Below the pieces are notes generated by a model that ran no database searches, was not told the DNA's origin, and was given only the letters and a program-made list of their open reading frames with translations. From IMG/VR virus record IMGVR_UViG_3300033412_000368, positions 1 through 48,669 of that record: a DNA stretch of 48,669 nt; one strand, given 5' to 3'. Every line of letters begins with the position of its first letter. Within the stretch, counting starts at the first letter, position 1. Shown here piece by piece: positions 1,044 to 47,177 of the stretch. This DNA comes from a virus (taxonomy: Duplodnaviria; Caudoviricetes). The position numbers were made by a program, and so were the translations under genes.

Positions 1044-1769
1044 ATGACTAATACTAAATTAAAGATTATAACCCAAGAAGAATTAGATAAGGTTCTTAGT
1101 GATCATAAGACTTGGTTAGATTCTGATGGGGATAAAGGGACTAGGGCTGATTTATCTTATTCTAATTTATCTTATTCTAATTTATCTTATTCTAATTTAT
1201 CTGGGTCTGATTTATCTTATTCTTATTTATCAAGGACTAATTTATCTAATTCTAATTTATCTAACTCTAATTTATCTTATTCTATTTTATATTGGGCTGA
1301 TTTATCTGATTCTGATTTATCTAAGATTGATTTATCTTATTCTAATTTATCTTATTCTAATTTATCTTATTCTAATTTATCTTATTCTAATTTATCTTAT
1401 TCTAATTTATCTGGGTCTGATTTATCTAATTCTAATTTATCTAATTCTAATTTATCTTATTCTATTTTATCTTATTCTAATTTATCTTATTCTAATTTAT
1501 CTAGGTCTGATTTAACTGGGGCTAATTTAACTAATGTTAATTTAACTGGGGCTAATACTTCCACTATAATAGGTAAAAGAATTATTACATTTCAGGGTAA
1601 TAAACACTTTGCTTATTATGTTGATGGATATATTAAGATAGGGTGTGAATATCATACCTTAGACTATTGGATTAAGAATTATGAGAGGATTGGTACTGAG
1701 GCTGAGTATAGTTCTGAGGATATTGAGTCTTATGGTAATTGGATTAAGAGTATTAAAACTGAGGAATAA
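1044..1769 (+). CDS. Pentapeptide-repeat protein, copy 1 (28 repeats)
   Basis: 34-aa conserved N-cap, [SAT][ND]L[ST]x repeats, 67-aa conserved C-domain with IGCEYH..DYW. Confidence 0.9.
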   Translation: MTNTKLKIITQEELDKVLSDHKTWLDSDGDKGTRADLSYSNLSYSNLSYSNLSGSDLSYSYLSRTNLSNSNLSNSNLSYSILYWADLSDSDLSKIDLSYSNLSYSNLSYSNLSYSNLSYSNLSGSDLSNSNLSNSNLSYSILSYSNLSYSNLSRSDLTGANLTNVNLTGANTSTIIGKRIITFQGNKHFAYYVDGYIKIGCEYHTLDYWIKNYERIGTEAEYSSEDIESYGNWIKSIKTEE

Positions 1770-1772
1770 ATA

Positions 1773-2288
1773 ATGACTAATACTAAATTGAAGACTATAA
1801 CCCAAGAGGAATTAGACAAGGTTCTTAGTGATCATAAGACTTGGTTAGATTCTCATGGGACTAGGGGGACTAGGGCTGATTTATCTCTTACTGATTTATC
1901 TAAGATGGATTTATCTTATTTTGATTTATATAAGATGGATTTATCTTATTCTATTTTATCTTATACTGATTTATCTTATACTGATTTATCTAATTCTTAT
2001 TTATTTAAATCTGATTTATCTCATTCTGATTTATCTAATTCTGATTTATCTGGGGCTGATTTAACTGGGGCTAATATCTCTAATATAATAGGTAAAAGAA
2101 TTATTACATTTCAGGGTAATAAACACTTTGCTTATTATGTTGATGGATATATTAAGATAGGGTGTGAATATCATACCTTAGACTATTGGATTAAGAACTA
2201 TGAGAGGATTGGTACTGAGGCTGAGTATAGTTCTGAGGATATTGAGTCTTATGGTAATTGGATTAAGAGTATTAAAACTGAGGATTAG
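1773..2288 (+). CDS. Pentapeptide-repeat protein, copy 2 (14 repeats)
   Basis: Same N-cap and C-domain as copy 1; in tandem with it. Confidence 0.9.
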   Translation: MTNTKLKTITQEELDKVLSDHKTWLDSHGTRGTRADLSLTDLSKMDLSYFDLYKMDLSYSILSYTDLSYTDLSNSYLFKSDLSHSDLSNSDLSGADLTGANISNIIGKRIITFQGNKHFAYYVDGYIKIGCEYHTLDYWIKNYERIGTEAEYSSEDIESYGNWIKSIKTED

Positions 2289-5272: not shown

Positions 5273-5397
5273 TTAAGAAGTGTTTATTTATAATTTTTTT
5301 TAGTTTGGTTTTATTGAGTTGTGGATTAATATATTTATCAATTAATTTATTTTTTGTTATTTTTAAATTTCAAGAGAAGGAAACCAATAATGACTAA
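5269..5397 (+). CDS. Small membrane protein or lipoprotein (42 aa, not in the ORF track)
   Basis: MIKKCLFIIFFSLVLLSCGLIYLSINLFFVIFKFQEKETNND*; ATGA overlap with the primase stop; lipobox-like LLSC. Confidence 0.45.
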   Translation: MIKKCLFIIFFSLVLLSCGLIYLSINLFFVIFKFQEKETNND

Positions 5398-6148
5398 TAC
5401 TAAATTAAAGACTATAACCCAAGAGGAATTAGATAAGGTTCTTAGTGATCATAAGACTTGGTTAGATTCTCATGGGGATAAAGGGACTAGGGCTGATTTA
5501 TCTCTTACTGATTTATCAAAGTTTGATTTATCTGGGTCTGATTTATCAATGACTAATTTATCTGGGTCTGATTTATCTGATTCTAATTTAGAAATGGCAT
5601 TTTTAACTTATTCAGGAAAAGTGATTGATCCATTTAATATAAAAGAAGAAGATATTTGTTTTATTGATATTGCCCATCATTTATCAAAAATATGTCGCTA
5701 TGGTGGAGCTTTACCTCATAATATAAATTATAGTGTTGCTCAACATTCCCTCCATTTAGTTGAATGGGCTAGGGAAAATAATTATTCTACCTCTTTGCAA
5801 AAACAATTATTATTACATGATGCGGCTGAGACTTATATAGGAGATATGATATCGAGTGTTAAAAAGGGTCTTAATGATTATAAAAAATTAGAATATAAAA
5901 TAGAAATGATTATAAAAAAGAAATATTCTATAATTGATTGTAAGGAAGATATAAATCTTATAAAATTATTAGATAAAAGAATTGTTTTAGATGAGGCAAG
6001 GGCTTTTTTTCAATCATATTATACTATTTTTTCCTCTAGATCAGGAGGTTTAACCCCTCTTGGGTTGAATATTATGATTTCTGATCCTAAAATAATAGAA
6101 CAACAATTTCTTAGAGAAGGGTTTTTATTGTTAGATAATATTTATTAA
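5390..6148 (+). CDS. Truncated pentapeptide cassette (copy 3) fused in frame to an HD-domain 5'-deoxynucleotidase (YfbR/YfdR-like)
   Basis: N-cap plus ~7 repeats at 5390-5593, then from the ATG at 5594: DIAHHLS..CRYGG, YSVAQHS, LLHDAAETYIGD. Confidence 0.8.
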   Translation: MTNTKLKTITQEELDKVLSDHKTWLDSHGDKGTRADLSLTDLSKFDLSGSDLSMTNLSGSDLSDSNLEMAFLTYSGKVIDPFNIKEEDICFIDIAHHLSKICRYGGALPHNINYSVAQHSLHLVEWARENNYSTSLQKQLLLHDAAETYIGDMISSVKKGLNDYKKLEYKIEMIIKKKYSIIDCKEDINLIKLLDKRIVLDEARAFFQSYYTIFSSRSGGLTPLGLNIMISDPKIIEQQFLREGFLLLDNIY

Positions 6149-6169: not shown

Positions 6170-6895
6170 ATGACTAATATTAGATTGAAGACTATAACCC
6201 AAGAAGAATTAGATAAGGTTCTTAGTGATCATAAGACTTGGTTAGAATCTAATGGGACTAAGGGGACTAGGGCTGATTTATCTCTTACTGATTTATCAAA
6301 GTTTGATTTATCTGGGTCTGATTTATCAATGACTAATTTATCTGGGTCTGATTTATCAAGGACTAATTTATCTAATTCTAATTTATCTAACTCTAATTTA
6401 TCTTATTCTATTTTATATTGGGCTGATTTATCTCTTAATGATTTATCTAGGTTTGATTTATCAAGGACTAATTTATCTTATTCTAATTTATCTAGGTCTG
6501 ATTTATTTTATTATGATTTGTCTCTTACTGATTTATTTTATTCTAATTTATCTAATTCTAATTTATCTAATTCTAATTTATCTAATTCTAATTTGTCTAA
6601 TTCAAATTTATATGGAGTTAATTTATCTAATTCTGATTTATATGGGGCTAATTTAACTAAGGTTAATTTAACTGGGGCTAATATCTCTAATATAATAGGT
6701 AAAAGAATCATTACATTTCAGGGTAATAAAGACTTCGCTTATTATGTTGATGGATATATTAAGATAGGGTGTGAATATCATACCTTAGACTATTGGATTA
6801 AGAACTATGAGAGGATTGGTACTGAGGCTGAGTATAGTTCTGAGGATATTGAGTCTTATGGTAATTGGATTAAGAGTATTAAAACTGAGGGTTAG
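6170..6895 (+). CDS. Pentapeptide-repeat protein, copy 4 (28 repeats)
   Basis: Start moved to the ATG at 6170 by homology with the other copies and a GGAG RBS. Confidence 0.9.
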   Translation: MTNIRLKTITQEELDKVLSDHKTWLESNGTKGTRADLSLTDLSKFDLSGSDLSMTNLSGSDLSRTNLSNSNLSNSNLSYSILYWADLSLNDLSRFDLSRTNLSYSNLSRSDLFYYDLSLTDLFYSNLSNSNLSNSNLSNSNLSNSNLYGVNLSNSDLYGANLTKVNLTGANISNIIGKRIITFQGNKDFAYYVDGYIKIGCEYHTLDYWIKNYERIGTEAEYSSEDIESYGNWIKSIKTEG

Positions 6896-6897
6896 AT

Positions 6898-8799
6898 ATG
6901 TGGATAGGGGATATTGAAACTGATGGGCTATTAGAAAATTGCACTAAAATCCATTGTGCCGTTTTCTATAATATAGAGGGGGGTCAATACAGGATCTTCA
7001 CCCCTGATACTATTAAGAATTTACCTCTATTTTTAGATTCAATTAATAGTCTGTCAATGCATAATGGAATTGGATTTGATTTAAAAGTTTTTAAAAAATT
7101 ATTAAATTATGAATTTAAAGGGTTTTATATAGATACTCTTCTTATGTCAAGAATTCTTTGGCCTGATATAGAAAAAGTTACTTTTATAAGTCAAGGTGAA
7201 TCAGAAAATAATCCTATTTATAAGATTTTAAATTCACCTCATTCTGTTGAATCTTGGGGGGTTCGATTTAATACAAAAAAACCAAATCATGAGGATTGGA
7301 CTGTTTATAGTGAAGAAATGCTTTATCGCTGTAAAGAAGATGTTAAAATACAAACTTTATTATATAAAAAATGTAAGGAAACTATCAATAATTATAAAAT
7401 TAAAGATGAGAGACTTAATAAATGGAAAGATATTTTTCAGATGGAACAAAAATTTTGGAGTGGGATGGAAATTCAAGCTGAGAATGGTTGGCAATTTAAT
7501 ATTGATAAATGTTATTTTTATATAAAAATGTTGATTCAGTATATTGAAGATATTGATAAAGAAATAGATAAAATTTTACCTAAAATAGTGGTTTATCCAT
7601 ATAAAGATAAAATATGTAAAGCATTTAAAAATAATGGAGATTTAACATTGACCACTTTTAATTGGTTGAAAAAATTTAATTATACAAAAAATGAGATAGG
7701 AGGAGATTTTGTTCGAGTTGAATTCAAAAAATTAAATCTTAACTCTCCAGAGCAAATAAAAAATTTTTTATTAAAAGAAGGATGGAAACCAGTAGAATAT
7801 AATACAAAGAAAGATAAGCATAATAAACCAATAAAAGATGAAAAGGGGAGGGTTATTTATACTACTCCTAAATTACCAAAGGAATTAGAGGACTGGGAGA
7901 AAGCTGCTGCTGAGACAAATTCTCCATCAATTAAATTGTTATCTAAAAGAAATAAAATGAAACATCGTTTAGGGCTTTTACAGGGTCTTTATGATTCAGT
8001 TAATTGTAATAGAAGAATCCCAGCTAAAATGGTGACATGTGGGACTCCAACTGCACGTGCACGACATATAACCGTAGTCAATATACCAAAATCTGAAGAG
8101 AGGGTATTTTTCGGAAAAGAGTGTCGATCATTATTTGTTGTTCCTGAAAATAAAATTTTAGTGGGAATTGATGCAAGTGCTTTAGAAGCTCGTTGTGAAT
8201 CTCATTATTTATATAAAATTGATCCTCGTTCTTCTGACGTTATTATCAATGGTGATATTCATAGTATTAATGCAAAAATATGGGGAGTTGAAAGATCTTT
8301 AGCAAAAAATGGAAAATATGCGTTAACTTATGGGTGTAGTGCAAAGAAGCTTGCAATTACTTTATTAAAAGACTCAGTTTTATCAGAAAAATTATATAAT
8401 GATTTTTGGGATGCAAATCCAGCGCTTAAAGAACTCGTAGAAAAATTAAAAATTCAAGTTAAATCTAAAGGTTATTTGGTAGCTGTTGATGGGAGACCTT
8501 TAAATATTCGATATGAACATGCTCAATTAAATACTTTATTACAGTCAGCAGGGGCTATTGTTATGAAAAAAGCGTGGTGTTTATTTGATGAGTGGAGAAA
8601 TAAGGAGAACTTAGAAAATAAGATACTAGATGTTGGAAATTTTCATGACGAAACGCAAATTGAAACTTTACCTGAACTAGGAGATAGAGTGGGAAATAAA
8701 TATATTGAGTGTATTAAATTAGCGGGCGAATATTATAATTTTAATGTACCATTAACTGGAGAATATAAAATTGGTAAATCATGGGATGAAACTCACTAA
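6898..8799 (+). CDS. DNA polymerase family A (T7 gp5-like)
   Basis: ExoI DIETDGL, ExoII HNGIGFD, motif A GIDASALEAR, motif B RSLAKNGKYALTYG, motif C HDE, C-terminal SWDETH. Confidence 0.95.
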   Translation: MWIGDIETDGLLENCTKIHCAVFYNIEGGQYRIFTPDTIKNLPLFLDSINSLSMHNGIGFDLKVFKKLLNYEFKGFYIDTLLMSRILWPDIEKVTFISQGESENNPIYKILNSPHSVESWGVRFNTKKPNHEDWTVYSEEMLYRCKEDVKIQTLLYKKCKETINNYKIKDERLNKWKDIFQMEQKFWSGMEIQAENGWQFNIDKCYFYIKMLIQYIEDIDKEIDKILPKIVVYPYKDKICKAFKNNGDLTLTTFNWLKKFNYTKNEIGGDFVRVEFKKLNLNSPEQIKNFLLKEGWKPVEYNTKKDKHNKPIKDEKGRVIYTTPKLPKELEDWEKAAAETNSPSIKLLSKRNKMKHRLGLLQGLYDSVNCNRRIPAKMVTCGTPTARARHITVVNIPKSEERVFFGKECRSLFVVPENKILVGIDASALEARCESHYLYKIDPRSSDVIINGDIHSINAKIWGVERSLAKNGKYALTYGCSAKKLAITLLKDSVLSEKLYNDFWDANPALKELVEKLKIQVKSKGYLVAVDGRPLNIRYEHAQLNTLLQSAGAIVMKKAWCLFDEWRNKENLENKILDVGNFHDETQIETLPELGDRVGNKYIECIKLAGEYYNFNVPLTGEYKIGKSWDETH

Positions 8800-8814
8800 G
8801 AAAAAAAAGAATTC

Positions 8815-8855
8815 ACTTGTCACGATTTCATTATCATTTTGTGACAAGTTGTTTT
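8815..8855 (+). terminator. Inverted repeat, possible terminator after the polymerase
   Basis: acttgtcac(8815-8823) pairs with gtgacaagt(8841-8849), followed by tgtttt. Confidence 0.4.
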
Positions 8856-8885
8856 ATAGTTAAAATAAAATATAAGAGGTGATAA

Positions 8886-9238
8886 ATGAAATTAGCTGTT
8901 ATAGGTAGTCGGGGATTTATAAACATGGATCTTCTTTCCATCACATTAATGAAATATTATCCCGATATAACACAGATAATATCGGGAGGAGCAAGAGGTG
9001 CTGATAAATTAGCTAAACATTATGCCCGAGAAAAAATATAAACTATTTAGAATTTCCGGCCGATTGGGAAAATTATGGTAAAAGCGCTGGCTACAGAAGA
9101 AATAGAGATATTATAAATGCATGTGACGAAGTGTTAGCGTTTTGGGACGGCACTAGTAAAGGCACTAAGCATTCGATCGATTTAGCTAATAAATTAAATA
9201 AGATTATTAGAATTGTAAATATAGGTGATAAGAAATGA
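8886..9238 (+). pseudogene. SLOG-family (DUF2493/YspA-like) gene with a 1-nt frameshift
   Basis: MKLAVIGSRGF..ISGGARGAD in one frame and FPADWENYGKSAGYRRN..AFWDGTSKGT in another. The break is in the A6 run at 9031-9036; A7 would restore the frame. Confidence 0.85.
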
Positions 9239-9528
9239 AACAAATTAAATTTGGTAAAAAATATGAAAAAACGATTAATGACATCGATACTAAATTTACA
9301 TTTACCCTCCCGTGTGGAACATTATGGCAGGATCTTTATTCTGGGAAAGTTTATATTAGTTCCTCTTCTTCCGAAAGAATTTATTTAGAGTCCGATGGAC
9401 GTAAACTTTATATTAAAGATTATTCAGATTTATATGATGTAATTAAGCGCCTATATACAGATGATATAATAACCCCTATTGATATGTTTCAATTACCTAA
9501 TTTTAGCGCAAAAGTAAATAAAATGTAA
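9235..9528 (+). CDS. Hypothetical protein
   Basis: 97-aa ORF with ATGA overlap to the upstream gene. Confidence 0.65.
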   Translation: MKQIKFGKKYEKTINDIDTKFTFTLPCGTLWQDLYSGKVYISSSSSERIYLESDGRKLYIKDYSDLYDVIKRLYTDDIITPIDMFQLPNFSAKVNKM

Positions 9529-9614
9529 AGAGATTGATTTGTTAGAATAAATGTAATAATATTAAATTATGACAACTTGTTAGTATATATTGTTACTTTA
9601 TTAAGGAGGTTTTT

Positions 9615-11528
9615 ATGAGGTCATTAAAAGGTCTGAAGGTTAAATATAATGTAGAAAAACCCCCTATTATCGGGATAGAAGAATATATTAAATTATTAAA
9701 TACGGACCCTGCTGTTCGTAGAACCCCATTTGAGAGAATGTTATCAGCCATTGGTGAGCCTGAAGTGATTGATACCTCTAAGAATGTTCGCTTATCAAGA
9801 ATTTTTGGGAATCGTCTTATTAAAAAATATAAACCTTTCAGTGAATTTTATGGGATGGAAGAAGTTGTTGAGAGAATTGTTTCTTATTTTAAATTTGCAG
9901 CCCAGGGTCTTGAAGAATCTAGGCAAATTTTATATTTATTAGGTCCAGTGGGAGGGGGAAAATCTTCAATTGCTGAAAAATTAAAAGAATTAATAGCAAA
10001 AGAACCAGTTTATGTATTAACAGACGAAAATGGTCAAATCTCTCCTGTGTTTGAGACTCCTTTATCTCTTTTATCACCAGAAGATTTTCCAGAAATACCG
10101 AAACGGTATTTTAAGTATCAATTATCACCATGGGGAATTAAAAGATTAGAGGAGTATAATGGTGATATATCACGTTTTAAAGTAGCAAAATTATTTCCTA
10201 ATGAATCAAAACAATATTGTATTAGCAAAACTGAGCCAGGAGATGATAATAATCAAGATATATCAGCCTTAGTTGGAAAGACTAATATTAGAAAATTAGA
10301 ATATTTTGATCAGAATGACCCAGATAGTTATTCTTATAGTGGGGGTCTCAATAAATCAAATCAAGGATTATTAGAGTTTGTTGAAATGTTTAAATCACCA
10401 ATAAAAATCTTACATCCTTTACTGACCGCAACACAGGAAGGAGATTATAATTCAACAGAAGGAATGGCTTCTCTCCCCTTTGAAGGTATAATTTTAGCCC
10501 ATTCCAATGAATCGGAGTGGAATTCTTTTAAAAATGATAATAAAAATGAAGCATTTATAGATAGAGTGTATGTAGTAAAGGTTCCTTATTGTTTACGTGT
10601 TGATGATGAGGTTAAAATTTATGAGAAATTAATAAAAAATTCAGATCTTTGTGACAAACCAATTGCACCTAATACTTTAGATTTACTAGCTAAATTGTTT
10701 ATTTTGACTCGTTTAGAAGAGCCTAAGACTTCAAATATTTTTACAAAATTAAAAGTATATAATGGTGAATCTGTTAAAGAAAAAGATCCATCGGCAAAAT
10801 CCCTTTATGATTATAAAATGCTTAGTTCTAAATTAGAGGGGTTTCGAGGATTGTCAACTCGTCTTGCCCACAAGGTTATTTCGCAAACATATAATTATGA
10901 TACGATGGAAATTGCAGCCAATCCTGTTCATTTATTTATTGTTATTGAACAAATGATTTATAATGAGCATTTAAATGAAAATGATGAATTACGATTTATG
11001 GGATATTTAAATGAATATCTAATTCTTCCATATATTGACTTAATCGGTGATGAGATTCAAAAATGCTATTTAGATAGTTATTCTGAATATGGTCAAAATT
11101 TATTTGATCGTTATATTACTTATGCGGATTACTGGCTTCAAGATCAAGATTATAGAGATCCCGATACTGGGCAATTATTTGACAGAGGAATTCTTTCTTC
11201 AGAATTAGAAAAATTAGAAATACCAGCAGAAATAACTAATAAAAAAGATTTTAGAAATGAGGTAGTTAATTTTTGTTTGCATTATAAAGCTGATCATGGT
11301 GTCTATCCCGATTGGACCTCCTATTCTAAATTAAAATTAGTGATAGAAAAATCAATTTTTGATAAAACAGAAAATTTATTACCAATAATTTCATTTCATA
11401 GTCATAAAAATAAAGATGATTCTAAAAAGCATGTTGATTTTATTAATAGAATGAAGAAAAAGGGTTATACTGAAAAACAAATAAAATTATTGTGTGAATG
11501 GTTTATTCGTTATAAACAATCAGCTTAA
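9615..11528 (+). CDS. prkA: PrkA/YeaG family AAA+ protein (annotated as a Ser kinase)
   Basis: LYLLGPVGGGKSS, KTEPGDDNNQDISALVGK, LLEFVEMFK, LHPLLTATQEG, AHSNESEW; full length; AAGGAGG RBS. Confidence 0.95.
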   Translation: MRSLKGLKVKYNVEKPPIIGIEEYIKLLNTDPAVRRTPFERMLSAIGEPEVIDTSKNVRLSRIFGNRLIKKYKPFSEFYGMEEVVERIVSYFKFAAQGLEESRQILYLLGPVGGGKSSIAEKLKELIAKEPVYVLTDENGQISPVFETPLSLLSPEDFPEIPKRYFKYQLSPWGIKRLEEYNGDISRFKVAKLFPNESKQYCISKTEPGDDNNQDISALVGKTNIRKLEYFDQNDPDSYSYSGGLNKSNQGLLEFVEMFKSPIKILHPLLTATQEGDYNSTEGMASLPFEGIILAHSNESEWNSFKNDNKNEAFIDRVYVVKVPYCLRVDDEVKIYEKLIKNSDLCDKPIAPNTLDLLAKLFILTRLEEPKTSNIFTKLKVYNGESVKEKDPSAKSLYDYKMLSSKLEGFRGLSTRLAHKVISQTYNYDTMEIAANPVHLFIVIEQMIYNEHLNENDELRFMGYLNEYLILPYIDLIGDEIQKCYLDSYSEYGQNLFDRYITYADYWLQDQDYRDPDTGQLFDRGILSSELEKLEIPAEITNKKDFRNEVVNFCLHYKADHGVYPDWTSYSKLKLVIEKSIFDKTENLLPIISFHSHKNKDDSKKHVDFINRMKKKGYTEKQIKLLCEWFIRYKQSA

Positions 11529-11553
11529 TAATTTCAAGAGAAGGAAACCAATA

Positions 11554-12384
11554 ATGACTAATATTGGATTGAAGACTATAACCCAAGAGGAATTAGACAA
11601 GGTTCTTAGTAATCATAAGACTTGGTTAGAATCTAATGGGACTAAAGGGACTAGGGCTGATTTATCTTATACAGATTTATCTGATTCTGATTTATCTAAG
11701 ATTGATTTATCTGGGTCTGATTTATCTTATTCTAATTTATCTTATTCTAATTTATCTGGGTCTGATTTATCTTATTCTTATTTATCTGATACTGATTTAT
11801 CAAAGACTAATTTATCTTATTCTAATTTATCTGGGTCTAATTTATCTAGGGTTAATTTATCTAATTCTATCTTACCTTATTCTGATTTATCTAAATCTGA
11901 TTTATATGGGGCTGATTTATCTTATATTGATTTAGCTGGGTCTGATTTATCTCATTCTGATTTATCTAATTCTAATTTATCTAATTCTAATTTATCTTAT
12001 TCTATTTTATCTTATTCTATCTTACCTTATTCTGATTTATCTCATTCTGATTTATCTGATTCTATCTTATCTCATTCTATCTTATCTCATTCTGATTTAT
12101 CTAATTCTAATTTATCTAATTCTGATTTATCTGGGGCTAATTTAACTAGGGTGAATTTAAATAGGTCTAATATCTCTAATATAATAGGTAAAAGAATCAT
12201 TACATTTCAGGGTAATAAAGACTTCGCTTATTATGTTGATGGATATATTAAGATAGGGTGTGAATATCATACCTTAGACTATTGGATTAAGAACTATGAG
12301 AGGATTGGTACTGAGGCTGAGTATAGCTCTGAGGATATTGAGTCTTATGGTAATTGGATTAAGAGTATTAAAACTGAGGGTTAG
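11554..12384 (+). CDS. Pentapeptide-repeat protein, copy 5 (35 repeats)
   Basis: Start at ATG 11554 by homology with the other copies. Confidence 0.9.
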   Translation: MTNIGLKTITQEELDKVLSNHKTWLESNGTKGTRADLSYTDLSDSDLSKIDLSGSDLSYSNLSYSNLSGSDLSYSYLSDTDLSKTNLSYSNLSGSNLSRVNLSNSILPYSDLSKSDLYGADLSYIDLAGSDLSHSDLSNSNLSNSNLSYSILSYSILPYSDLSHSDLSDSILSHSILSHSDLSNSNLSNSDLSGANLTRVNLNRSNISNIIGKRIITFQGNKDFAYYVDGYIKIGCEYHTLDYWIKNYERIGTEAEYSSEDIESYGNWIKSIKTEG

Positions 12385-12407
12385 ATATGAAACTGGAGGA
12401 ATTATAA

Positions 12408-12686
12408 ATGAATAAATATATTTGTAGTGGAATAGTTGGACATGATCCGGATTTAATTGATAAAGGTTTAAAATTTTCAGTGGCAGTTAAGCAAGATGAT
12501 AAGTCTACTCTTTGGATTAGAGTATTGTGTTTTGGAAAAATTGCTGATAATTGTAAAGAAATTGTAAAGAAAAGTATGAAGGTTTTAGTGGAAGGGAAAC
12601 TTATAATGTCTTCTAATGATAAAATGTCTTTATTAGCTGATAGAGTCGAATTTTTAACTTGGAAAGAGGAAACCAATAATGACTAA
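12408..12686 (+). CDS. ssb: Short SSB (OB fold) without an acidic tail
   Basis: MNK...G.VG.DP, FSVAV, W..V..FGKIA, KVLVEGKL, typical of bacterial-type SSB. Confidence 0.75.
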   Translation: MNKYICSGIVGHDPDLIDKGLKFSVAVKQDDKSTLWIRVLCFGKIADNCKEIVKKSMKVLVEGKLIMSSNDKMSLLADRVEFLTWKEETNND

Positions 12687-13254
12687 TACTAAATTAAAGA
12701 CTATAACCAAAAGAAAATTAGATAAGGTTCTTAGTAATCATAAGACTTGGTTAGATTCTTATGGGACTAAGGGGACTAGGGCTGATTTATCTTATACTGA
12801 TTTATCTAATACTGATTTATCTCTTACTGATTTATTTTATTCTAATTTATCTAATTCTAATTTATCTCATTCTGATTTATATGGGTCTAATTTATCTAAT
12901 TCTGATTTATCTGGGGCTAATTTAACTAATTCTAATTTATCTTATTCTATTTTATCTTATTCTATCTTACCTTATTCTGATTTATCTAATTCTGATTTAT
13001 CTGGGGCTAATTTAACTAATATTAATTTAACTAAGGCTAATATCTCTAATATAATAGGTAAAAGAATCATTACATTTCAGGGTAATAAAGACTTCGCTTA
13101 TTATGTTGATGGATATATTAAGATAGGGTGTGAATATCATACCTTAGACTATTGGATTAAGAACTATGAGAGGATTGGTACTGAGGCTGAGTATAGCTCT
13201 GAGGATATTGAGTCTTATGGTAATTGGATTAAGAGTATTAAAACTGAGGGTTAG
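12679..13254 (+). CDS. Pentapeptide-repeat protein, copy 6 (18 repeats)
   Basis: Same cassette as the other copies. Confidence 0.9.
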   Translation: MTNTKLKTITKRKLDKVLSNHKTWLDSYGTKGTRADLSYTDLSNTDLSLTDLFYSNLSNSNLSHSDLYGSNLSNSDLSGANLTNSNLSYSILSYSILPYSDLSNSDLSGANLTNINLTKANISNIIGKRIITFQGNKDFAYYVDGYIKIGCEYHTLDYWIKNYERIGTEAEYSSEDIESYGNWIKSIKTEG

Positions 13255-13256
13255 AT

Positions 13257-14411
13257 ATGACTATTATAATCGATCGGAGGAATACCCGCTCATCAAAAAA
13301 TTGTTCTAATCGGACTCGTTTTATTCATCGATATAAAAATTATATAAAGAAAACTTTAGATGATTGTGTTGAAAAAAAGAAAATTAAAGATTTAACTGAT
13401 TCAGTAGCTATCCCAATTAATTGGGATATTCGAGATATAGATATGGGATTTAATAGATCAACGGGAACTTATGATTATATCGGAACTGGGAATAAAGAGT
13501 ATGAGAAAGGGGATCGATTCTATAAAGATAATGATAATCCAGAGTCTTCAATTTATGAGGATGAGGAATCTGACCAGGGAGATTATACTTTTACTTTAAC
13601 TAAAGAAGAATTCTTTGATCTCTATTTCGATGATATGGAACTTCCAGATTTTATTAAAACTTCCATGATGAATATTTGTAAATCCTCTTATAAACGTGCA
13701 GGTTATATAAAAAATGGGGTGATTTCGAGATTAGATATTCTTAAAACATTACAAATGTCGCTTGCTAGACGATTGTCATGCCCTAAAGATAAAAACCCCC
13801 CTTTTTTAGATGATATTGATCTTCGTTTTAAGAATATTATTTCTGTTCCTCAACCAATGTTAAAAGCAGTTATGTTCTGTATGATGGATGTATCTGGATC
13901 AATGACTGAACATCATAGTTATTTATCAAAGAAATTTTTTATATTATTATATTTATTTCTTTGTAAAAATTATACTTCAGTTGATATTCGTTTTATTCGT
14001 TATCATCATAGTGCCAAGGATGTTTCGGAAGAAGAATTTTTCAATTCCCATCAAACAGGGGGAACACAGGTATTACCCGCTTTGCAATTAATTAATGAGA
14101 TTATAAAGAATGAATATTCAATAAATACATATAATATTTATATTGCTCATACGAGTGATGGAGATATTGGGAACTTGGATGATACTCTTATTGAGTATTT
14201 AGATCATAATTTAATTAATAAATTGCAATATTATGCTTATCTTCAAGTTCAAGATGCTTATCAATATGGAGATTTTAAAGAGGGGAATGAGGGGCTTTAT
14301 GGTATTTTGAAAAGTTCTTCTTATTGGATGACAAAATTAAATATTGAAACGGCTGTTGATTTACAAGATATTTTCCCAGTTTTAAAAAATTTATTTAAGA
14401 GGAATAAATAA
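13257..14411 (+). CDS. yeaH: YeaH/YhbH (DUF444) VWA-domain protein
   Basis: IIDRR..NR.RFI.RYK, PFLDDIDLRF, KAVMFCMMDVSGSM (MIDAS), TGGT, SDGD. Confidence 0.92.
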   Translation: MTIIIDRRNTRSSKNCSNRTRFIHRYKNYIKKTLDDCVEKKKIKDLTDSVAIPINWDIRDIDMGFNRSTGTYDYIGTGNKEYEKGDRFYKDNDNPESSIYEDEESDQGDYTFTLTKEEFFDLYFDDMELPDFIKTSMMNICKSSYKRAGYIKNGVISRLDILKTLQMSLARRLSCPKDKNPPFLDDIDLRFKNIISVPQPMLKAVMFCMMDVSGSMTEHHSYLSKKFFILLYLFLCKNYTSVDIRFIRYHHSAKDVSEEEFFNSHQTGGTQVLPALQLINEIIKNEYSINTYNIYIAHTSDGDIGNLDDTLIEYLDHNLINKLQYYAYLQVQDAYQYGDFKEGNEGLYGILKSSSYWMTKLNIETAVDLQDIFPVLKNLFKRNK

Positions 14412-15391
14412 TGACTAATATTAGATTGAAGATTCTAACCCAAGAAGAATTAGAAAAGGTTCTTAGTGATCATAAGACTTGGTTAGAATCTAATGGGACT
14501 AAGGGGACTAGGGCTGATTTATCTTATACAGATTTATCTAAGATTAATCTATCTTATACTGATTTATCTGGGTCTAATCTATTAAGGGCTAATTTATTTA
14601 ATTCTGATTTATCTTATACTGATTTATCTGGGTCTAATCTATTAAGGGCTAATTTATCTAATTCTGATTTATCTTATACTGATTTATCTGGGTCTAATCT
14701 ATTAAGGGCTAATTTATCTAATTCTGATTTATCTGGGTCTGATTTATCTAATACTGATTTATCTTATACTGATTTATCTGGGTCTAATCTATTAAGGGCT
14801 AATTTATTTAATTCTGATTTATCTTATACAGATTTATCTAAGATTAATCTATCTTATACTGATTTATCTGGGTCTAATCTATTAAGGGCTAATTTATTTA
14901 ATTCTGATTTATCGGGGTCTAATTTATCTAATTCTAATTTATATGGAGTTAATTTATCTAATTCTAATTTATCTTGTATTGATTTATCTGGGTCTAATTT
15001 ATCTAATTCTAATTTATTTAATTCTAATTTATCTGATTCTAATTTATCTAGGTCTGATTTATCTAATTCTAATTTATCTTATTCTAATTTATCTAGGTCT
15101 GATTTATCTTATTCTGATTTATCTAGGTCTGATTTATATGGGGCTAATTTAACTAATGTTAATTTAACTGGGGCTAATATCTCTAATATAATAGGTAAAA
15201 GAATCATTACATTTCAGGGTAATAAAGACTTCGCTTATTATGTTGATGGATATATTAAGATAGGGTGTGAATATCATACCTTAGACTATTGGATTAAGAA
15301 TTATGAGAGGATTGGTACTGAGGCTGAGTATAGTTCTGAGGATATTGAGTCTTATGGTAATTGGATTAAGAGTATTAAAACTAAGGATTAG
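14411..15391 (+). CDS. Pentapeptide-repeat protein, copy 7 (45 repeats)
   Basis: Same cassette; internal higher-order repeat TDLSGSNLLRANL(F/S)NSDLS present 5 times. Confidence 0.9.
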   Translation: MTNIRLKILTQEELEKVLSDHKTWLESNGTKGTRADLSYTDLSKINLSYTDLSGSNLLRANLFNSDLSYTDLSGSNLLRANLSNSDLSYTDLSGSNLLRANLSNSDLSGSDLSNTDLSYTDLSGSNLLRANLFNSDLSYTDLSKINLSYTDLSGSNLLRANLFNSDLSGSNLSNSNLYGVNLSNSNLSCIDLSGSNLSNSNLFNSNLSDSNLSRSDLSNSNLSYSNLSRSDLSYSDLSRSDLYGANLTNVNLTGANISNIIGKRIITFQGNKDFAYYVDGYIKIGCEYHTLDYWIKNYERIGTEAEYSSEDIESYGNWIKSIKTKD

Positions 15392-15417
15392 ATATAATTA
15401 TTGGATAGGAGAGAATT

Positions 15418-16851
15418 ATGCAAAATCCTCTTTTTATTGGATATGACTGGGATATAAATTTAATTGAAAAATTATGGAAAAGAATTGATTTTTATGGAAA
15501 AAAAATGGGGTTGGATTATTACCCCCCTAAATTTGAAGTTATAACATCAGAACAAATGATAGATGCCTATTCTAGCAATGGAATGCCAATTTATTATAAT
15601 CATTGGTCATTTGGTAAAAATTTTATTAAGACTATGGATAATTATAAAAAGGGAAAAATGGGGTTGGCTTATGAAATGGTTATTAATTCTAATCCTTGTT
15701 TGGCGTATCTAATGGAGGATAATACGGCAACATTAACTGCTATGGTAATTTCTCATGCTAGTTGTGGGCATTCTCATTTTTTCAAAAATAATTATTTATT
15801 TAAAAAAAATACTAACCCAGAGTCAATAATTAATTTATTAGAGTCAACTAAAAAATATATCCTTAAATGTGAAGAACAGTATGGGTTTGAGAGAGTTGAA
15901 AATCTTATTAGTTGTATTCATTTTTTATCTAAATTTGGAATAAATAAATATCCTCGATGTAATAAAACTAATGATAAATTAATTAGAGAACGAGAAGAAT
16001 ATTATAGACAGAGTTATGATCCTATTATCAACAATCATCTTTTTTCATTAAATAATCAGGATATTAAAAAAGAAAATAATTTATTGATTGAAAATATAGA
16101 CGAAGAAAATTTAATAAAGTTTATAATTGATCATTCTTTAAGTTTAGAGATTTGGCAGAAAAATATTCTTAATTTAATAATGAGTATTGAACAATATTTT
16201 TATCCGCAGAGTCAAACTAAAATAATGAATGAAGGATTTGCTTGTTTTATTCATTATCACATAATGGAGGAACTTTATAAAAACGGTGATATTGATGAAG
16301 GGTCCTACATTGAATTTATTAAACATCACACTGATGTTTGTTATCAACCTGAATTAACCTCTATTAACCCTTATGCCTTAGGATTTGAAATTTTTATGGA
16401 TATTAAACGCTCTTGTTTATATCCCGATGAGGAAGATTATATTCATCTATCAACATCAGGGAGTAAAGATTGGATGGTTGAAATTAAAAATGTTGTGAAG
16501 TATTATAAAGATGAGAGTTTTATTACTCAATTTTTATCACCAAAAGTAATAAGAAAATTGGGATTATTCTCATATCACGATTCTAGTGAGTTTCCTTATG
16601 TTGAAATTACTGGTACCCAAGATGATTGTGATATTATGACAATAAGAGAACAATTGTGCAATTATTTGAAAAGAGAGAATTTTATACCTGATTTAGAAAT
16701 TATTTCTTTTAATAAAGTAAATAATCGTGTTATTATTAAGTATAATAAATTTAAAAATAGAGAAATTTATAATTTTGATATTTTTGAAGAAGTTTTTAAT
16801 GAACTAACAGGTTTAACTGTTAATTTAGAGGAGAGTGAGAATGGCTTATAA
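15418..16851 (+). CDS. spoVR: SpoVR/YcgB family protein
   Basis: GMPIYYNHWSFGK, GLAYEMVINSNPCLAYLMEDN, HASCGHSHFFKNNYLF, QTKIMNEGFA, INPYALGF, DESFITQFLSPK. Confidence 0.93.
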   Translation: MQNPLFIGYDWDINLIEKLWKRIDFYGKKMGLDYYPPKFEVITSEQMIDAYSSNGMPIYYNHWSFGKNFIKTMDNYKKGKMGLAYEMVINSNPCLAYLMEDNTATLTAMVISHASCGHSHFFKNNYLFKKNTNPESIINLLESTKKYILKCEEQYGFERVENLISCIHFLSKFGINKYPRCNKTNDKLIREREEYYRQSYDPIINNHLFSLNNQDIKKENNLLIENIDEENLIKFIIDHSLSLEIWQKNILNLIMSIEQYFYPQSQTKIMNEGFACFIHYHIMEELYKNGDIDEGSYIEFIKHHTDVCYQPELTSINPYALGFEIFMDIKRSCLYPDEEDYIHLSTSGSKDWMVEIKNVVKYYKDESFITQFLSPKVIRKLGLFSYHDSSEFPYVEITGTQDDCDIMTIREQLCNYLKRENFIPDLEIISFNKVNNRVIIKYNKFKNREIYNFDIFEEVFNELTGLTVNLEESENGL

Positions 16852-17362
16852 TGTGAAAGTAATTAAAAAAGAAGATGATAAAGTTGGTAAAAGTCAAAAG
16901 GGAGAATATCGTTATACCTCTTTAACAATTGATTATGAAGGGAAAATTTCTGAAAGGAAAATTCTATCAACATCATTTCAAAGATATCCTGATCTAAAAG
17001 GGGAATTAGAAAAAGTAAAAGATGGTATGACTATTGGGATAGAAACGCAACAAAATGGGAATTATAAAGAGATTAGTAAAATTGTTTTATCACCAATTAC
17101 TCATAGTAAAACTATTATTCCTTCTGAATCTAGGGATATTTCTATACAAGTAATGAATGCAATGAATAATGCATGTCAGACATTAGGGGAAGGAATGGTG
17201 ACAGTCAATCAGATTGAACAAAGATCCTGGGAATTAGTTTTATTGGGGGAGAGACTCAAAAAACGATTAGCTGATGGAGATCATCTAAAAGATAATATAT
17301 CTCCTCCGAATGATCCATCTGTTAATACCGGTTCATATGAAGAAGAGGAAGTTCCTTTTTGA
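16841..17362 (+). CDS. Putative phage ssDNA-binding/recombination protein
   Basis: Acidic tail YEEEEVPF; lies just before the exonuclease; GAGGAG RBS. Confidence 0.55.
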   Translation: MAYNVKVIKKEDDKVGKSQKGEYRYTSLTIDYEGKISERKILSTSFQRYPDLKGELEKVKDGMTIGIETQQNGNYKEISKIVLSPITHSKTIIPSESRDISIQVMNAMNNACQTLGEGMVTVNQIEQRSWELVLLGERLKKRLADGDHLKDNISPPNDPSVNTGSYEEEEVPF

Positions 17363-17388
17363 CCCTTTTAATTTTGGAGAACTGAATT

Positions 17389-18390
17389 ATGTTAATAATT
17401 GATGGAGATCTTTATGTTTATAAAGCTGGATTTGCCTATCGGGGCAAAGAGATTGGTCATAAATTAATTAATAGGAGGACCTCAGAAATTGTTGACCTTG
17501 GTAATGTATCTCTGATAAAAGCTAAGAAATTTTGTAAAGAAAATGGGTATGTCAATTCTGATTGGAAATTAATTTATTATAATAATCCTTTTCCTTTACA
17601 TTTTATATTGGGTAAATTAGATGAGATTATTCAGTCACTATTGAATAAATTTGCGAATCACGAATATCAAATGTTTATAACCTCTTCGGATGTGAGTAAT
17701 TATCGTTTTAACATTGCTACAATAACCCCTTATAAAGGTAGTAGAAGGAAGTGTGTAAAATGTTTTGAACGTTGTAAATCTGAATTTGATAGAAATAAAA
17801 AGGTAATTTTAATTTGTAAAAATTGTGGGGAGGTTGATAAGGAAGCAACTGTCCAGGATAAGCCTGAATATTATGAGGAAATTAGGGATCATCTGATTCA
17901 GCGATGGAATGCAGAATTAGTGCATGGTCAAGAGGCGGATGACGCTGTTAGTATCCTTGCAAAAAAATTATCTAATGATATTGATAGTAATCCTATAATG
18001 GTTCATATTGATAAAGATATTAATAATACTCCTGGAGTTCATTATAATCCTGATAAAGAATTGTTATATACAATTGATTATTCAACATCTATTAAAAATT
18101 TTTATACTCAATTTTTATTAGGGGATCGGATTGATTGTATTCCTGGAGTAATTGGAATTGGACCAGTTTTAGCCGAAGAAATATTTAAAGAGTGTTTTGT
18201 TTCTTCTGATTATGAACAGATTATTATGGAAATATATCAAGGTGAATATATTTTTAGTAAAAGACCACCAAAAAATAGGATGAATTTAACTCCTAACGAG
18301 GCATATCAAAGATTAGTGGAAATAGGGCAATTATTATATATTAGACAAGAGGAGAATGAATTATGGAGACCAACAATACCGCAACCTTAG
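17389..18390 (+). CDS. 5'-3' exonuclease (T7 gp6-like) with a Zn-finger insertion
   Basis: IDGD, YKGSR, EADD, DKD, GD..D.IPGVIGIG; insertion CVKC...CKNC. Confidence 0.88.
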   Translation: MLIIDGDLYVYKAGFAYRGKEIGHKLINRRTSEIVDLGNVSLIKAKKFCKENGYVNSDWKLIYYNNPFPLHFILGKLDEIIQSLLNKFANHEYQMFITSSDVSNYRFNIATITPYKGSRRKCVKCFERCKSEFDRNKKVILICKNCGEVDKEATVQDKPEYYEEIRDHLIQRWNAELVHGQEADDAVSILAKKLSNDIDSNPIMVHIDKDINNTPGVHYNPDKELLYTIDYSTSIKNFYTQFLLGDRIDCIPGVIGIGPVLAEEIFKECFVSSDYEQIIMEIYQGEYIFSKRPPKNRMNLTPNEAYQRLVEIGQLLYIRQEENELWRPTIPQP

Positions 18391-18512
18391 AAGAGATGGA
18401 AATTCCAGATGATTGGAATGATGATTGGGATCTCTGGTCAGAATCTCTTTATGATAATGAAGAATGGTGGGAGCAATTTGATAAAGATAATTATTTGAAG
18501 GAGTTAGAATGA
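18363..18512 (+). CDS. Small, very acidic, Trp-rich protein (49 aa, not in the ORF track)
   Basis: METNNTATLEEMEIPDDWNDDWDLWSESLYDNEEWWEQFDKDNYLKELE*; GGAG RBS; ATGA overlap with the next gene. Confidence 0.6.
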   Translation: METNNTATLEEMEIPDDWNDDWDLWSESLYDNEEWWEQFDKDNYLKELE

Positions 18513-18874
18513 CATCACCTCAATATGCTAAACAATTAGGTCGAGAGGGACAGAAGAAAGTAAAAGAGATTTTACTTCGACGATTCCCACATCTTGAAAA
18601 TGATGATATTTATTCTAGACCAATGGGATCTCCTGGAGAGGATTTAATGTTATCTCCTAGAGCGAGAAAAGTACTTCCTTTTGATATTGAGGTGAAATAT
18701 GGGAAACAAATTAATTTAATTAGAGCTTGTCAACAGGCATCAGTAGAGTCTAGAAATAAAAAATACACCCCTCTTTCTGTTGGATGTTATCGATTAGAAA
18801 AGCCTCACCAGTGGTATTGTTGTTTGAAATTGGAGGATTTTTTAAAACTTTTAGTTTGTAGGGTAGGAGATTAA
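18509..18874 (+). CDS. PD-(D/E)xK nuclease, Holliday-junction resolvase-like
   Basis: AK..GR..Q, GEDL..., DIEVK pattern. Confidence 0.7.
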   Translation: MTSPQYAKQLGREGQKKVKEILLRRFPHLENDDIYSRPMGSPGEDLMLSPRARKVLPFDIEVKYGKQINLIRACQQASVESRNKKYTPLSVGCYRLEKPHQWYCCLKLEDFLKLLVCRVGD

Positions 18875-18876
18875 TA

Positions 18877-19452
18877 ATGACTAATATTGGATTGAAGACT
18901 ATAACCCAAGAAGAATTAGATAAGGTTCTTAGTAATCATGAGACTTGGTTAGATTCTCATGGGACTAAGGGGACTAGGGCTGATTTATCTTATACAGATT
19001 TATCTAATTCTGATTTATATGATTCTAATTTATCTCATTCTGATTTATCTAGGACTAATTTATCAATGACTAATTTATATAATACTAATTTATCTAATTC
19101 TAATTTATTTAATTCTAATTTATCTGATTCTAATTTATCTAGGTCTGATTTATCTAATTCTAATTTATCTTATTCTAATTTATCTAGGTCTGATTTATCT
19201 TATTCTGATTTATCTAGGTCTGATTTATATGGGGCTAATATTTCCAATATAATAGGTAAAAGAATCATTACATTTCAGGGTAATAAAGACTTCGCTTATT
19301 ATGTTGATGGATATATTAAGATAGGGTGTGAATATCATACCTTAGACTATTGGATTAAGAACTATGAGAGGATTGGTACTGAGGCTGAGTATAGTTCTGA
19401 GGATATTGAGTCTTATGGTAATTGGATTAAGAGTATTAAAACTGAGGGTTAG
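18877..19452 (+). CDS. Pentapeptide-repeat protein, copy 8 (18 repeats)
   Basis: Same cassette as the other copies. Confidence 0.9.
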   Translation: MTNIGLKTITQEELDKVLSNHETWLDSHGTKGTRADLSYTDLSNSDLYDSNLSHSDLSRTNLSMTNLYNTNLSNSNLFNSNLSDSNLSRSDLSNSNLSYSNLSRSDLSYSDLSRSDLYGANISNIIGKRIITFQGNKDFAYYVDGYIKIGCEYHTLDYWIKNYERIGTEAEYSSEDIESYGNWIKSIKTEG

Positions 19453-19454
19453 AT

Positions 19455-19943
19455 ATGAAAAAATTTATATTAGGATGTTTTTTCTTTTGTATTTCACAAT
19501 TGGCACAAGCGCAAATCTCAATACAAGAGTTAGATAAAATCTATAAGACTATAATTATAAAAAATGGACTGATACAACCCGTATCTAAATCTATTATTAA
19601 TTCAAATATAATACAAGCGATGGTTACTAAAGGAAATCATTTATTTATAACAGTGGGATTATTGAAATATTTATCTAAGCCTGAACTTGCTTTTGTATTA
19701 TCACATGAATTGGCTCATATTAAATTCAAAGATCCATATCATAAGCAGATTGGGACTCAACAAGAAGATCGGGCTGATAAATATGGAAGTCAATATGCTA
19801 AAAAAGCAGGATATTCTGAATGTCAGCAGGCTTTATTTTTTATCCGATTATATCGATTATATGGGAATCAAGGAGGATTAAATGATACTCATTCTTCTAA
19901 TTTAAAGAGATTTTGGAATATCTATAAGGGGTGTAATAAATGA
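19455..19943 (+). CDS. Exported M48-family Zn metallopeptidase
   Basis: Signal peptide MKKF...AQA; ELAFVLSHELAH, QEDRAD..G, TH.S...R. Confidence 0.8.
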   Translation: MKKFILGCFFFCISQLAQAQISIQELDKIYKTIIIKNGLIQPVSKSIINSNIIQAMVTKGNHLFITVGLLKYLSKPELAFVLSHELAHIKFKDPYHKQIGTQQEDRADKYGSQYAKKAGYSECQQALFFIRLYRLYGNQGGLNDTHSSNLKRFWNIYKGCNK

Positions 19944-20789: not shown

Positions 20790-21485
20790 ATGGGGATATT
20801 TTCTAATATAATTGACTTTTTAAAATCAGTCACATTAAAAGATCAAATTAATCCGACTTTCATTTATAATGAGGTCAATGATATAAATGATAATTATCAA
20901 ATTGGTCTTTTAACTAAAAAGTATGAGTGTAGTAATAAGGGCCCTGGTTATATTTCTAATGGTTCTAAGTGGGGAGATCCGGGTGGTGATAGTTATGGGA
21001 GTTATCAATTAGAAACTAAAAAAGGTACTATGCAAGAATATTTAACAAGAGTGGATGATAAATTCACCGAGGCTTTACGAGCTTTGAAGATCAATAGTGA
21101 TTCCTTTAAATCAAAATGGAAAGATATTGCTTTAAAGGATCCTGTTGGGTTTGAACAATCACAATTTAATTATCTTGCTAATAAAAAAAATGGTTATTAT
21201 GATGGAATAAAATATGCCAAAAATCTTGGATGGAATACGGATAATTTAGCAATGAAATCGGCCATCTTCTCAGCGGTAAACCAATCTGGAGGATGGAAAA
21301 CATTTTTTGATAAGACAGGAATAATAAAAACAGATAGTTTAGATGTACAAATAAATAAATTATATGATGCCCGAGCCAATTATTTCAAAAAATTAAATTT
21401 GACAAAAAATGTAAAAGATTCTATTATTAAGAATAGAACTGTGGATGAAAGAAAAGATTGTTTAACATTAATAGGGAGAAAATAA
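20790..21485 (+). CDS. Putative endolysin (lysozyme-like, VgrG3-C-like muramidase)
   Basis: KYE.S..G...IS.G...GD.GG.SYG.YQL pattern; I..LYDAR..YF; GAGGAG RBS. Confidence 0.65.
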   Translation: MGIFSNIIDFLKSVTLKDQINPTFIYNEVNDINDNYQIGLLTKKYECSNKGPGYISNGSKWGDPGGDSYGSYQLETKKGTMQEYLTRVDDKFTEALRALKINSDSFKSKWKDIALKDPVGFEQSQFNYLANKKNGYYDGIKYAKNLGWNTDNLAMKSAIFSAVNQSGGWKTFFDKTGIIKTDSLDVQINKLYDARANYFKKLNLTKNVKDSIIKNRTVDERKDCLTLIGRK

Positions 21486-47096: not shown

Positions 47097-47131
47097 TTAA
47101 ATCTCTCTCTATTTAATATCTTTATAAAAAG

Positions 47132-47160: not shown

Positions 47161-47177
47161 TATATTTAAGCAATATT

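What the first reader, a model, noticed from the sequence alone, without database searches (positions are those of the whole stretch)
6880..19460. Cassettes sit exactly at gene junctions and supply the next gene's RBS and ATG
Seen: copies 4, 5, 6 and 8 all end ACTGAGGGTTAGATATG. For copies 4, 6 and 8 that ATG is the start codon of three unrelated genes (DNA polymerase 6898, yeaH 13257, M48 peptidase 19455), with GAGGG as the SD. Homology also extends upstream of the cassette ATG. TTTCAAGAGAAGGAAACCAATAATG precedes copies 3 and 5, with AGGAAACCAATAATG before copy 6. GGAGATTAATAATG precedes copies 4 and 8, and GAGGAATAAATAATG precedes copies 2 and 7. All copies are co-oriented and none interrupts a gene. 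Inference: the unit runs from RBS to start codon and spreads by recombination at translation-start microhomology, keeping operons translationally coupled. No integrase, transposase or RT was recognised.
Basis: partly seen in the sequence, partly recalled or inferred. Interest (0 to 1): 0.85.

Follow-up and report, generated by a model that had tools for sequence, protein, structure and literature searches.

The report
Repeat-protein gene multiplying at phage junctions
A soil phage carries eight near-identical copies of one repeat-protein gene wedged between other genes, four of them ending in the same short tail that holds the start codon of the next reading frame; the copies likely spread by recombination at these short translation-start sequences, a junction pattern also seen in other phages.

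Summary
The motifs are real, at the stated coordinates, and are present in read-derived contigs. The 'cassette' is a protein gene: eight co-oriented pentapeptide-repeat (predicted beta-helix) genes, 10.6% of a 48.7-kb soil phage. Four end GAGGGTTAGATATG. That ATG starts pol, yeaH and M48 where homologs start, and a six-codon mini-ORF before ssb. Corrections: the left edge is not fixed (three leader classes, 8-24 nt), and copy 3 is truncated and fused in frame to an HD gene. No terminal repeats, hairpins or recombinase were found. No close empty-site relative was obtained. One distant relative has GAGGAGTTAGATATG before yeaH without a cassette, so the tail may be yeaH's own leader, captured. 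Other phages show the same pattern, including duplicates of non-pentapeptide genes and one near-empty-site pair whose boundary falls at ATGA. Best reading: serial gene copying by short-homology recombination at ribosome-binding sites and start codons, filtered by selection, not a dedicated mobile element. The scan noted a similar case on other DNA (e1-9578778). New variant of a known kind; interest 0.45.

The parts
1044..1769 (+). Copy 1, pentapeptide-repeat gene, 241 aa, 28 repeats; leader GGGGATTAATA; tail GAGGAATAA-ATA-ATG runs into copy 2
1773..2288 (+). Copy 2, 171 aa, 14 repeats; leader shared with copy 7; tail GGATTAGATTAATT
5366..5389 (+). 24-nt leader shared exactly with copy 5 (11530-11553); lies in the end of the 42-aa ORF 5269-5397
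5390..6148 (+). Copy 3: 5' part of the gene (6 repeats) fused in frame to a YfbR/HD nucleotidase whose own Met is at 5594; junction TTAGAAATG resembles the tail TTAGATATG
6170..6895 (+). Copy 4, 241 aa, 28 repeats; leader GGAGATTAATA shared with copy 8
6884..6900 (+). Tail ACTGAGGGTTAGATATG: SD-like GAGGG, stop TAG, AT, and the ATG of pol
6898..8799 (+). Family A DNA polymerase
9615..11528 (+). prkA; copy 5's leader begins at its stop
11554..12384 (+). Copy 5, 276 aa, 35 repeats
12387..12407 (+). Mini-ORF MKLEEL* opened by copy 5's tail; holds GGAGG, and its stop abuts the ssb ATG
12408..12686 (+). ssb, 92 aa; its last codons and stop lie in copy 6's leader and start
12679..13254 (+). Copy 6, 191 aa, 18 repeats; 12-nt leader shared with copies 3 and 5
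13257..14411 (+). yeaH (DUF444); ATG in copy 6's tail; its start ATGACTA equals the copies' own start; its end FKRNK* is copy 7's leader and resembles homolog ends
14411..15391 (+). Copy 7, 326 aa, 45 repeats; tail GGATTAGATATAATT; ycgB (15418) keeps a separate SD
18877..19452 (+). Copy 8, 191 aa, 18 repeats; follows a RusA-like resolvase gene (18509-18874)
19455..19943 (+). M48 peptidase; ATG in copy 8's tail (19441-19457)

Best explanation
This phage holds eight copies of one pentapeptide-repeat gene at gene junctions, likely spread one after another by the phage's or host's ordinary recombination using the few bases that unrelated junctions share (the ribosome-binding site on the left, the start codon on the right), with selection likely keeping only insertions that leave the next gene translatable. 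Shown: copies, shared leaders and tails, downstream starts in register with homologs, open frames, no terminal repeats or hairpins. Inferred: a founder copy landed before yeaH and took yeaH's leader as its tail; later copies carried that tail, and a variable piece of the donor site's left leader, to pol, M48, HD and ssb; recombination between copies then mixed their interiors, changed repeat number (14-45) and produced the copy 3-HD fusion by deletion. Inferred, weakly: the protein, an acidic predicted beta-helix with a conserved C-terminal cap, is kept for dose or length variety against a host target; DNA mimicry is the first guess and is untested.
For: Leader sharing 7 of 28 pairs versus 1 of 820. 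Downstream ATG in register with homolog starts. Left edges vary and stop at SD-like bases. Copy 7's leader is yeaH's family-like C-terminus and reappears before copy 2 at the GAGG of copy 1's tail; copies 2 and 7 also share GGATTAGAT(A)TAATT. Short matches extend past the ATG: ATGACTA (gene start and yeaH), ATGAAA (copies 5 and 8). The only TTAGAT-ATG among 443 SD-led starts in 26 related phage loci is before yeaH in G047, and that phage's pentapeptide proteins end WLKSLK/T*, without our TEG. Parallel cases: G001, two copies sharing an 18-nt leader and TAGGAGAATACT(A/G)ATG, then different ORFs; L210 versus L223, where the same upstream gene end is followed by ATGAGT or by ATGACA (a pentapeptide gene), and that gene's tail GGGAGGTAATAAA-ATGAA leads into different genes. 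Of 17 repeat pairs looked at in related loci, 3 non-pentapeptide pairs (L011, L055, L056) also end at or just past the next ATG. No stop among 77 distinct repeat units (rough P 0.002) and a central Leu kept in 73 of 77.
Against: No close relative with an empty site was obtained; the closest yeaH homologs (54-62%) had no DNA within reach. Leader classes do not follow interior similarity: copies 3 and 5 are 90% alike in the first 115 nt, 2 and 7 are 91%, while 4 and 7 are 96.5%, so the parent-daughter order needs later mixing. The G047 match is one genome at 39% protein identity and could be chance. pol (TGG) and HD (GCA) share nothing past the ATG with the other starts, so the homology there is only 3 nt and selection alone could explain the edge. 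In 74 of 90 codon changes between repeat units the residue changes, so constraint on the repeats is loose. The stop test treats recombined units as mutations and overstates significance.
Confidence: 0.6

Rival explanations
1. Homology plays no part: copies land by random illegitimate recombination and only selection for an intact, translated neighbour makes the edges coincide with starts.
For: This is the second standard model of phage mosaicism (PMC3233612, passage). Homology at pol and HD is only ATG. Copies 2 and 7 end without donating an ATG.
Against: Selection allows many right edges (copy 7 keeps ycgB's own SD), yet 4 of 7 full copies, probably also copy 3, end at the same base. Left edges stop at SD-like bases. 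Short matches run past the ATG in three cases here and in L210/L223.
Confidence: 0.18
2. A tandem array of the gene arose first, and neighbouring genes were then captured or shuffled between copies by homologous recombination and small circles, as with PeSL modules.
For: Copies 1-2 are tandem; ssb sits between copies 5 and 6 inside the prkA-yeaH junction, which is direct (60 nt or less) in 10 of 21 related loci. Copies share runs of repeat units: 7 and 8 nine units, 3 and 4 five. Other assemblies join copy 7 to M48 and copy 4 to yeaH.
Against: Homologous exchange between copies keeps old junctions and cannot create new tail-to-gene joins; prkA-yeaH-ycgB order is unchanged against relatives. 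The alternative joins may be assembly errors at repeats.
Confidence: 0.12
3. It is a non-autonomous mobile element moved by a dedicated host or helper recombinase that joins TTAGAT-ATG to targets ending AATA-ATG through a circle.
For: AATA-ATG in 8 of 8 versus 7 of 41 controls; sharp right edge; recent copies (3' part 94-99.5% identical).
Against: No terminal inverted repeats in 3 copies examined, no stable hairpins at 5 ends, no recombinase among the ORFs scanned. Left sharing of up to 24 nt does not fit a fixed end. Non-pentapeptide duplicates show the same edge.
Confidence: 0.08
4. The copies or junctions are an assembly artefact.
For: Three assemblies of this phage disagree on some joins and on one tail base.
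Against: Each copy has its own repeat string; read-derived contigs hold the tail joined to four different sequences.
Confidence: 0.02

Closest known systems
Boundary-sequence versus illegitimate-recombination-plus-selection models of phage mosaicism (PMC3233612 and PMC3029335, passages read)
   Same: Module edges coincide with gene edges; short shared sequences at junctions; no dedicated enzyme needed.
   Different: Here one gene is repeated eight times within one genome and the shared sequence is the translation start itself, so several events can be compared side by side.
PeSL regulatory cassettes of T4-type phages RB49/phi1 (Arbiol et al. 2010, PMC2839356; abstract and Discussion read)
   Same: Dispersed co-oriented repeats at junctions, thought to use general recombination and to spare essential genes.
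   Different: PeSLs are non-coding promoter plus stem-loop units with mini-circles shown. This repeat is a whole coding gene, has no stem-loop at its ends, sits among replication genes, and no circle was seen.
Pentapeptide repeat (Rfr-fold) proteins, PF00805, including MfpA/Qnr (PMC8145042, PMC10886550, passages read)
   Same: Eight or more contiguous repeats in 7 of 8 copies; predicted beta-helix matching solved PRPs (best Z 12.2, rmsd 1.9 A over 87 residues); acidic (pI 4.6-5.6).
   Different: Carries an N-terminal helix and a 65-residue C-terminal cap with no Pfam match (1420 clusters at E<=0.001); dimer and gyrase binding not tested.
MPME elements of mycobacteriophages (PMC3029335, passage read)
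   Same: Small single-ORF unit found at several phage sites.
   Different: MPMEs have terminal inverted repeats, a 6-bp addition and can interrupt genes; no terminal repeats are seen here.

Membership tests
Pentapeptide repeat protein (Rfr fold) | At least eight contiguous five-residue repeats | tested here: met
   14-45 repeats in 7 copies, 6 in copy 3; PF00805 in all 8
Pentapeptide repeat protein (Rfr fold) | Quadrilateral beta-helix | tested here: met
   Predicted only: copy 2 model pLDDT 92.6 with 111 sequences; top fold hits are PRPs
MfpA/Qnr gyrase-binding PRPs | Dimer through C-terminal helices | not tested
   No complex prediction was obtained
MfpA/Qnr gyrase-binding PRPs | Binds gyrase as a DNA mimic | not testable with these tools
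   Needs a biochemical assay; only fold resemblance
IS / MITE / MPME | Terminal inverted repeats | tested here: not met
   No arm pair links the two ends in copies 4, 6, 8
IS / MITE / MPME | Fixed ends in all copies | tested here: not met
   Left sharing 4-24 nt; right end shared by 4 of 7 full copies
IS / MITE / MPME | Target duplication or addition at an empty site | tested here: inconclusive
   No close empty-site relative
IS / MITE / MPME | Transposase in cis or in trans | tested here: inconclusive
   None among the ORFs scanned in Pfam (51) and PHROGs (13 and 33); host unknown, many ORFs unassigned
IS200/IS605 or integron cassette | Subterminal hairpin or attC-like palindrome | tested here: not met
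   Five junction stretches fold no better than shuffles, z -0.89 to +0.96; no Rfam hit
PeSL | Consensus promoter plus terminator stem-loop in a non-coding unit | tested here: not met
   Promoter-like sites 141 versus 144 expected; no terminator-like site at copy ends; the unit is coding
PeSL | Mini-circles from exchange between copies | tested here: inconclusive
   Only contigs were available; they drop rare forms
Boundary-sequence mosaicism | Short shared sequences at module edges coinciding with gene edges | tested here: met
Boundary-sequence mosaicism | Crossover shown inside the shared sequence by filled versus empty comparison | tested here: inconclusive
   Seen in another family (L210/L223), not for this phage

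The most novel reading that the evidence does not exclude
Phage pentapeptide-repeat genes are a class of enzyme-free selfish genes that home to translation starts: each copy hands its SD and ATG to the gene it lands before, is then hard to lose cleanly, and its DNA-mimic product may itself raise illegitimate recombination by acting on host gyrase, driving the recurrent 3- to 11-copy expansions seen here in unrelated phages.
Probability: 0.1. Interest if true: 0.85.

Novelty: new variant of a known kind. Interest (0 to 1): 0.45.

Why it matters
Why phage module edges fall on gene edges is an old open question: targeted short homology or blind recombination plus selection. One genome with eight recent copies of the same gene gives several events to compare directly and points to ribosome-binding sites and start codons as the joints. 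It also flags a phage protein family, with an unannotated C-terminal cap, that expands repeatedly in unrelated phages and here takes a tenth of the genome, which suggests a host-interaction role worth testing.

Tried and rejected
Empty-site search: pol found one relative at 46%; yeaH profiles gave phage relatives near 40% or bacteria; the closest homologs have no accession. Self-encoded mobility enzyme: fold searches gave PRPs for the repeat part; the cap had only weak matches (Z 6 or less, within noise) and no solved relative by sequence; the cap was not folded alone, so this does not show a new fold. A single-sequence fold failed (pLDDT 40). Terminal repeats, hairpins and Rfam families: none. 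Internal promoter TTAACT-17-TATAAT: present in five copies but the regional count is at chance level. Circles and deletions: no tail-to-head or copy-skipping joint was listed, but only contigs were available, so this says nothing on rare forms. No RNA holder listed. A dimer prediction was not obtained. An idea that the 24-nt leader of copies 3 and 5 is yeaH's native leader competes with the tail being that leader; favours the tail, and neither is settled. Nine full-text searches (listings only unless named) showed no paper on multi-copy phage pentapeptide genes or start-codon crossovers; most subscription journals are outside the library and no supplements were read.
Full report
Setting. The window is the whole record G000, 48,669 bases, 31% GC. 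It is a phage: primase-helicase, family A polymerase, exonuclease, resolvase, prkA-yeaH-ycgB on +, and terminase, portal, capsid and tail genes on -. Another assembly joins its two ends (L003). The three runs that hold it are soil metagenomes and may be its source.

What the cassette is. Eight co-oriented genes start ATGACTAATA (1044, 1773, 5390, 6170, 11554, 12679, 14411, 18877). Each has an N-terminal cap of about 33 residues and 14-45 pentapeptide repeats (6 in copy 3); the seven full copies end in a cap of about 65 residues. The first 115 nt are 88.7-96.5% identical and the last 215 nt 94.4-99.5%. They total 5,136 bp, 10.6% of the genome. Copy 2 folds as a beta-helix with a helical N-cap and an alpha/beta C-cap (pLDDT 92.6). 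The top structural hits are pentapeptide repeat proteins. The C-cap has no Pfam match in 111 aligned members but 1420 clusters at E<=0.001. All frames are open, none of 77 distinct repeat units holds a stop (rough P 0.002) and the central Leu is kept in 73 of 77, although 74 of 90 codon changes alter the residue.

The observation. Leader sharing is far beyond this genome's background: 7 of 28 cassette pairs share 8 nt or more before the ATG against 1 of 820 control pairs. Read-derived contigs join the tail to pol, ssb, yeaH and M48. The ATG in the tail is in register with the homolog start for yeaH (invariant M1 in 27 sequences) and pol (L001), and within a few residues for M48 and HD. Three corrections follow. 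Copy 3 stops after six repeats at TCTAATTTAGAAATG and continues in frame as a YfbR/HD gene; TTAGAAATG is one base from the tail, which suggests a deletion of a once complete copy (inference). Copy 5's ATG opens MKLEEL*, which abuts ssb. The left edge falls into three classes of 8-24 nt, with only AATA common to all, and copies 1, 2 and 7 have other tails. Two other assemblies pair copies differently and differ at one tail base.

Where leaders and tail come from. Copy 7's leader is the end of yeaH (FKRNK*), matching homolog ends FKKDK and FKKEK, so it is probably native there. It reappears before copy 2, starting at the GAGG of copy 1's tail, and copies 2 and 7 share a tail variant. This fits copying with a piece of the donor's flank, a reading I took up after seeing scan note e1-9578778. 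Interior similarity does not follow leader class, and copies share runs of repeat units across classes, so later exchange between copies is needed. For the tail, relative G047 (L006/L193; yeaH 39% identical, no pentapeptide gene at that junction) has GAGGAGTTAGATATGAC before yeaH. It is the only TTAGAT-ATG among 443 SD-led starts in 26 related loci. The exact and one-variable-base tail patterns were found only in this phage's own loci among those fetched up. G047's two pentapeptide proteins end WLKSLK/T*. So the tail may be yeaH's old leader, picked up by a founder copy and carried on.

Other phages. A motif scan of viral contigs gave 63 stretches. I searched 48 of the records for PF00805 and fetched parts of 10, chosen mostly for many matches. 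Six of the 10 had three or more pentapeptide ORFs: G038 11, G023 6, G045 6, G001, G032 and G046 3 each. This is a biased sample, not a frequency. In G001 two copies share an 18-nt leader and TAGGAGAATACT(A/G)ATG and then lead into ORFs of 99 and 43 aa. G047's two copies share a 13-nt leader and loosely similar downstream leaders, which are common in that phage. G038 and G045 copies share upstream stretches but not tails. In another family, L223 has ...GACAAGAAA-ATGAGT where L210 has ...GACAAGAAA-ATGACA (the pentapeptide gene), with the ATGAGT gene further on, and the gene's tail leads into different ATGAA genes. That is the nearest thing to an empty site, though the genes around it are shuffled too. 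As a control, 3 of 17 repeat pairs from related loci, all non-pentapeptide, also end at or just past the next ATG. The prkA-yeaH and yeaH-ycgB junctions are direct in 10 and 11 of 21 related loci and filled by other DNA in the rest. The junction rule looks general; what is special here is the copy number.

Mechanism. Shown: anatomy, statistics, reading-frame register, and no terminal repeats, hairpins or recognised recombinase. Inferred: serial copying by short-homology recombination, left crossover at SD-like bases, right crossover at ATG or a few bases beyond, and selection for a translated neighbour (0.6). Rivals: selection alone (0.18), tandem array with gene capture (0.12), dedicated element (0.08), artefact (0.02). 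The protein's role is untested; acidity and fold make a DNA-mimic or host-binding role the first guess.

Known systems. It works like boundary-sequence mosaicism (PMC3233612 and PMC3029335, passages) and resembles PeSL shuffling (PMC2839356, abstract and Discussion), but it is not a PeSL, IS, MPME or integron cassette by the features tested. The protein is a PRP by the definition in PMC8145042 (passages); MfpA/Qnr features (PMC10886550, passages) were not tested. Pentapeptide genes are routine in phage annotations, with up to four matching places in Staphylococcus phage records, and a 375-bp deletion in one is noted in PMC11053796 (passages). Nine searches found no description of such expansions (listed under Tried and rejected). 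The scan itself noted two other cases, unchecked.

Verdict. Real and clean, a good natural test of an old question, but most likely general phage recombination rather than a new element. New variant of a known kind, interest 0.45; novel case probability 0.1.

Noticed in passing
window 9615-16851; L006-L024, L034, L047, L077, L165, L166: prkA-yeaH-ycgB sits in a broad group of phages, many on 40-50-kb contigs, often with other genes between the three.
   Followed up: partly
L264-L266 (G038), L267-L268 (G045): Expansions of 11 and 6 pentapeptide genes in the parts fetched; many copies share a 36-40-nt upstream stretch that begins with TTGAC, like a portable promoter-RBS cassette.
   Followed up: partly
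window 1542, 2061, 6668, 13027, 15164: TTAACT-17-TATAAT inside five copies, about 230 nt before the next gene; TATAAT is coded by N-I-I and the regional count is at chance level.
   Followed up: partly
window 6683-6892 and equivalents: The C-terminal cap is a large family without a Pfam model (1420 clusters); IGC, W, G, Y, I, Y are nearly invariant.
   Followed up: partly
window 12408-12686 and 5269-5397: ssb (92 aa, no acidic tail) and a 42-aa hydrophobic ORF both end KEETNND* or EKETNND*, read through a copy's leader and start; whether insertion truncated them is unknown.
   Followed up: partly
window 8886-9041 and 8800: The SLOG-family ORF is only 51 aa and may be frameshifted; contigs of two runs have one more A after 8800.
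   Followed up: no
window 33420-34391: Three 384-nt repeats in the 1160-aa tail fibre gene.
   Followed up: no
window 16841-17362: Unassigned 173-aa protein ending EEEEVPF, with only unnamed viral look-alikes; possibly a second ssDNA-binding protein.
   Followed up: partly
window 20790-21485; 40949-41356; 47100-48669: VgrG3-like C-terminal domain gene, a GroES-like gene, and a 1.5-kb stretch almost free of ORFs.
   Followed up: no
L210, L216, L222, L223, L235, L248: A group of contigs in which small genes, one a pentapeptide gene, are reshuffled gene by gene at RBS/ATG edges.
   Followed up: partly
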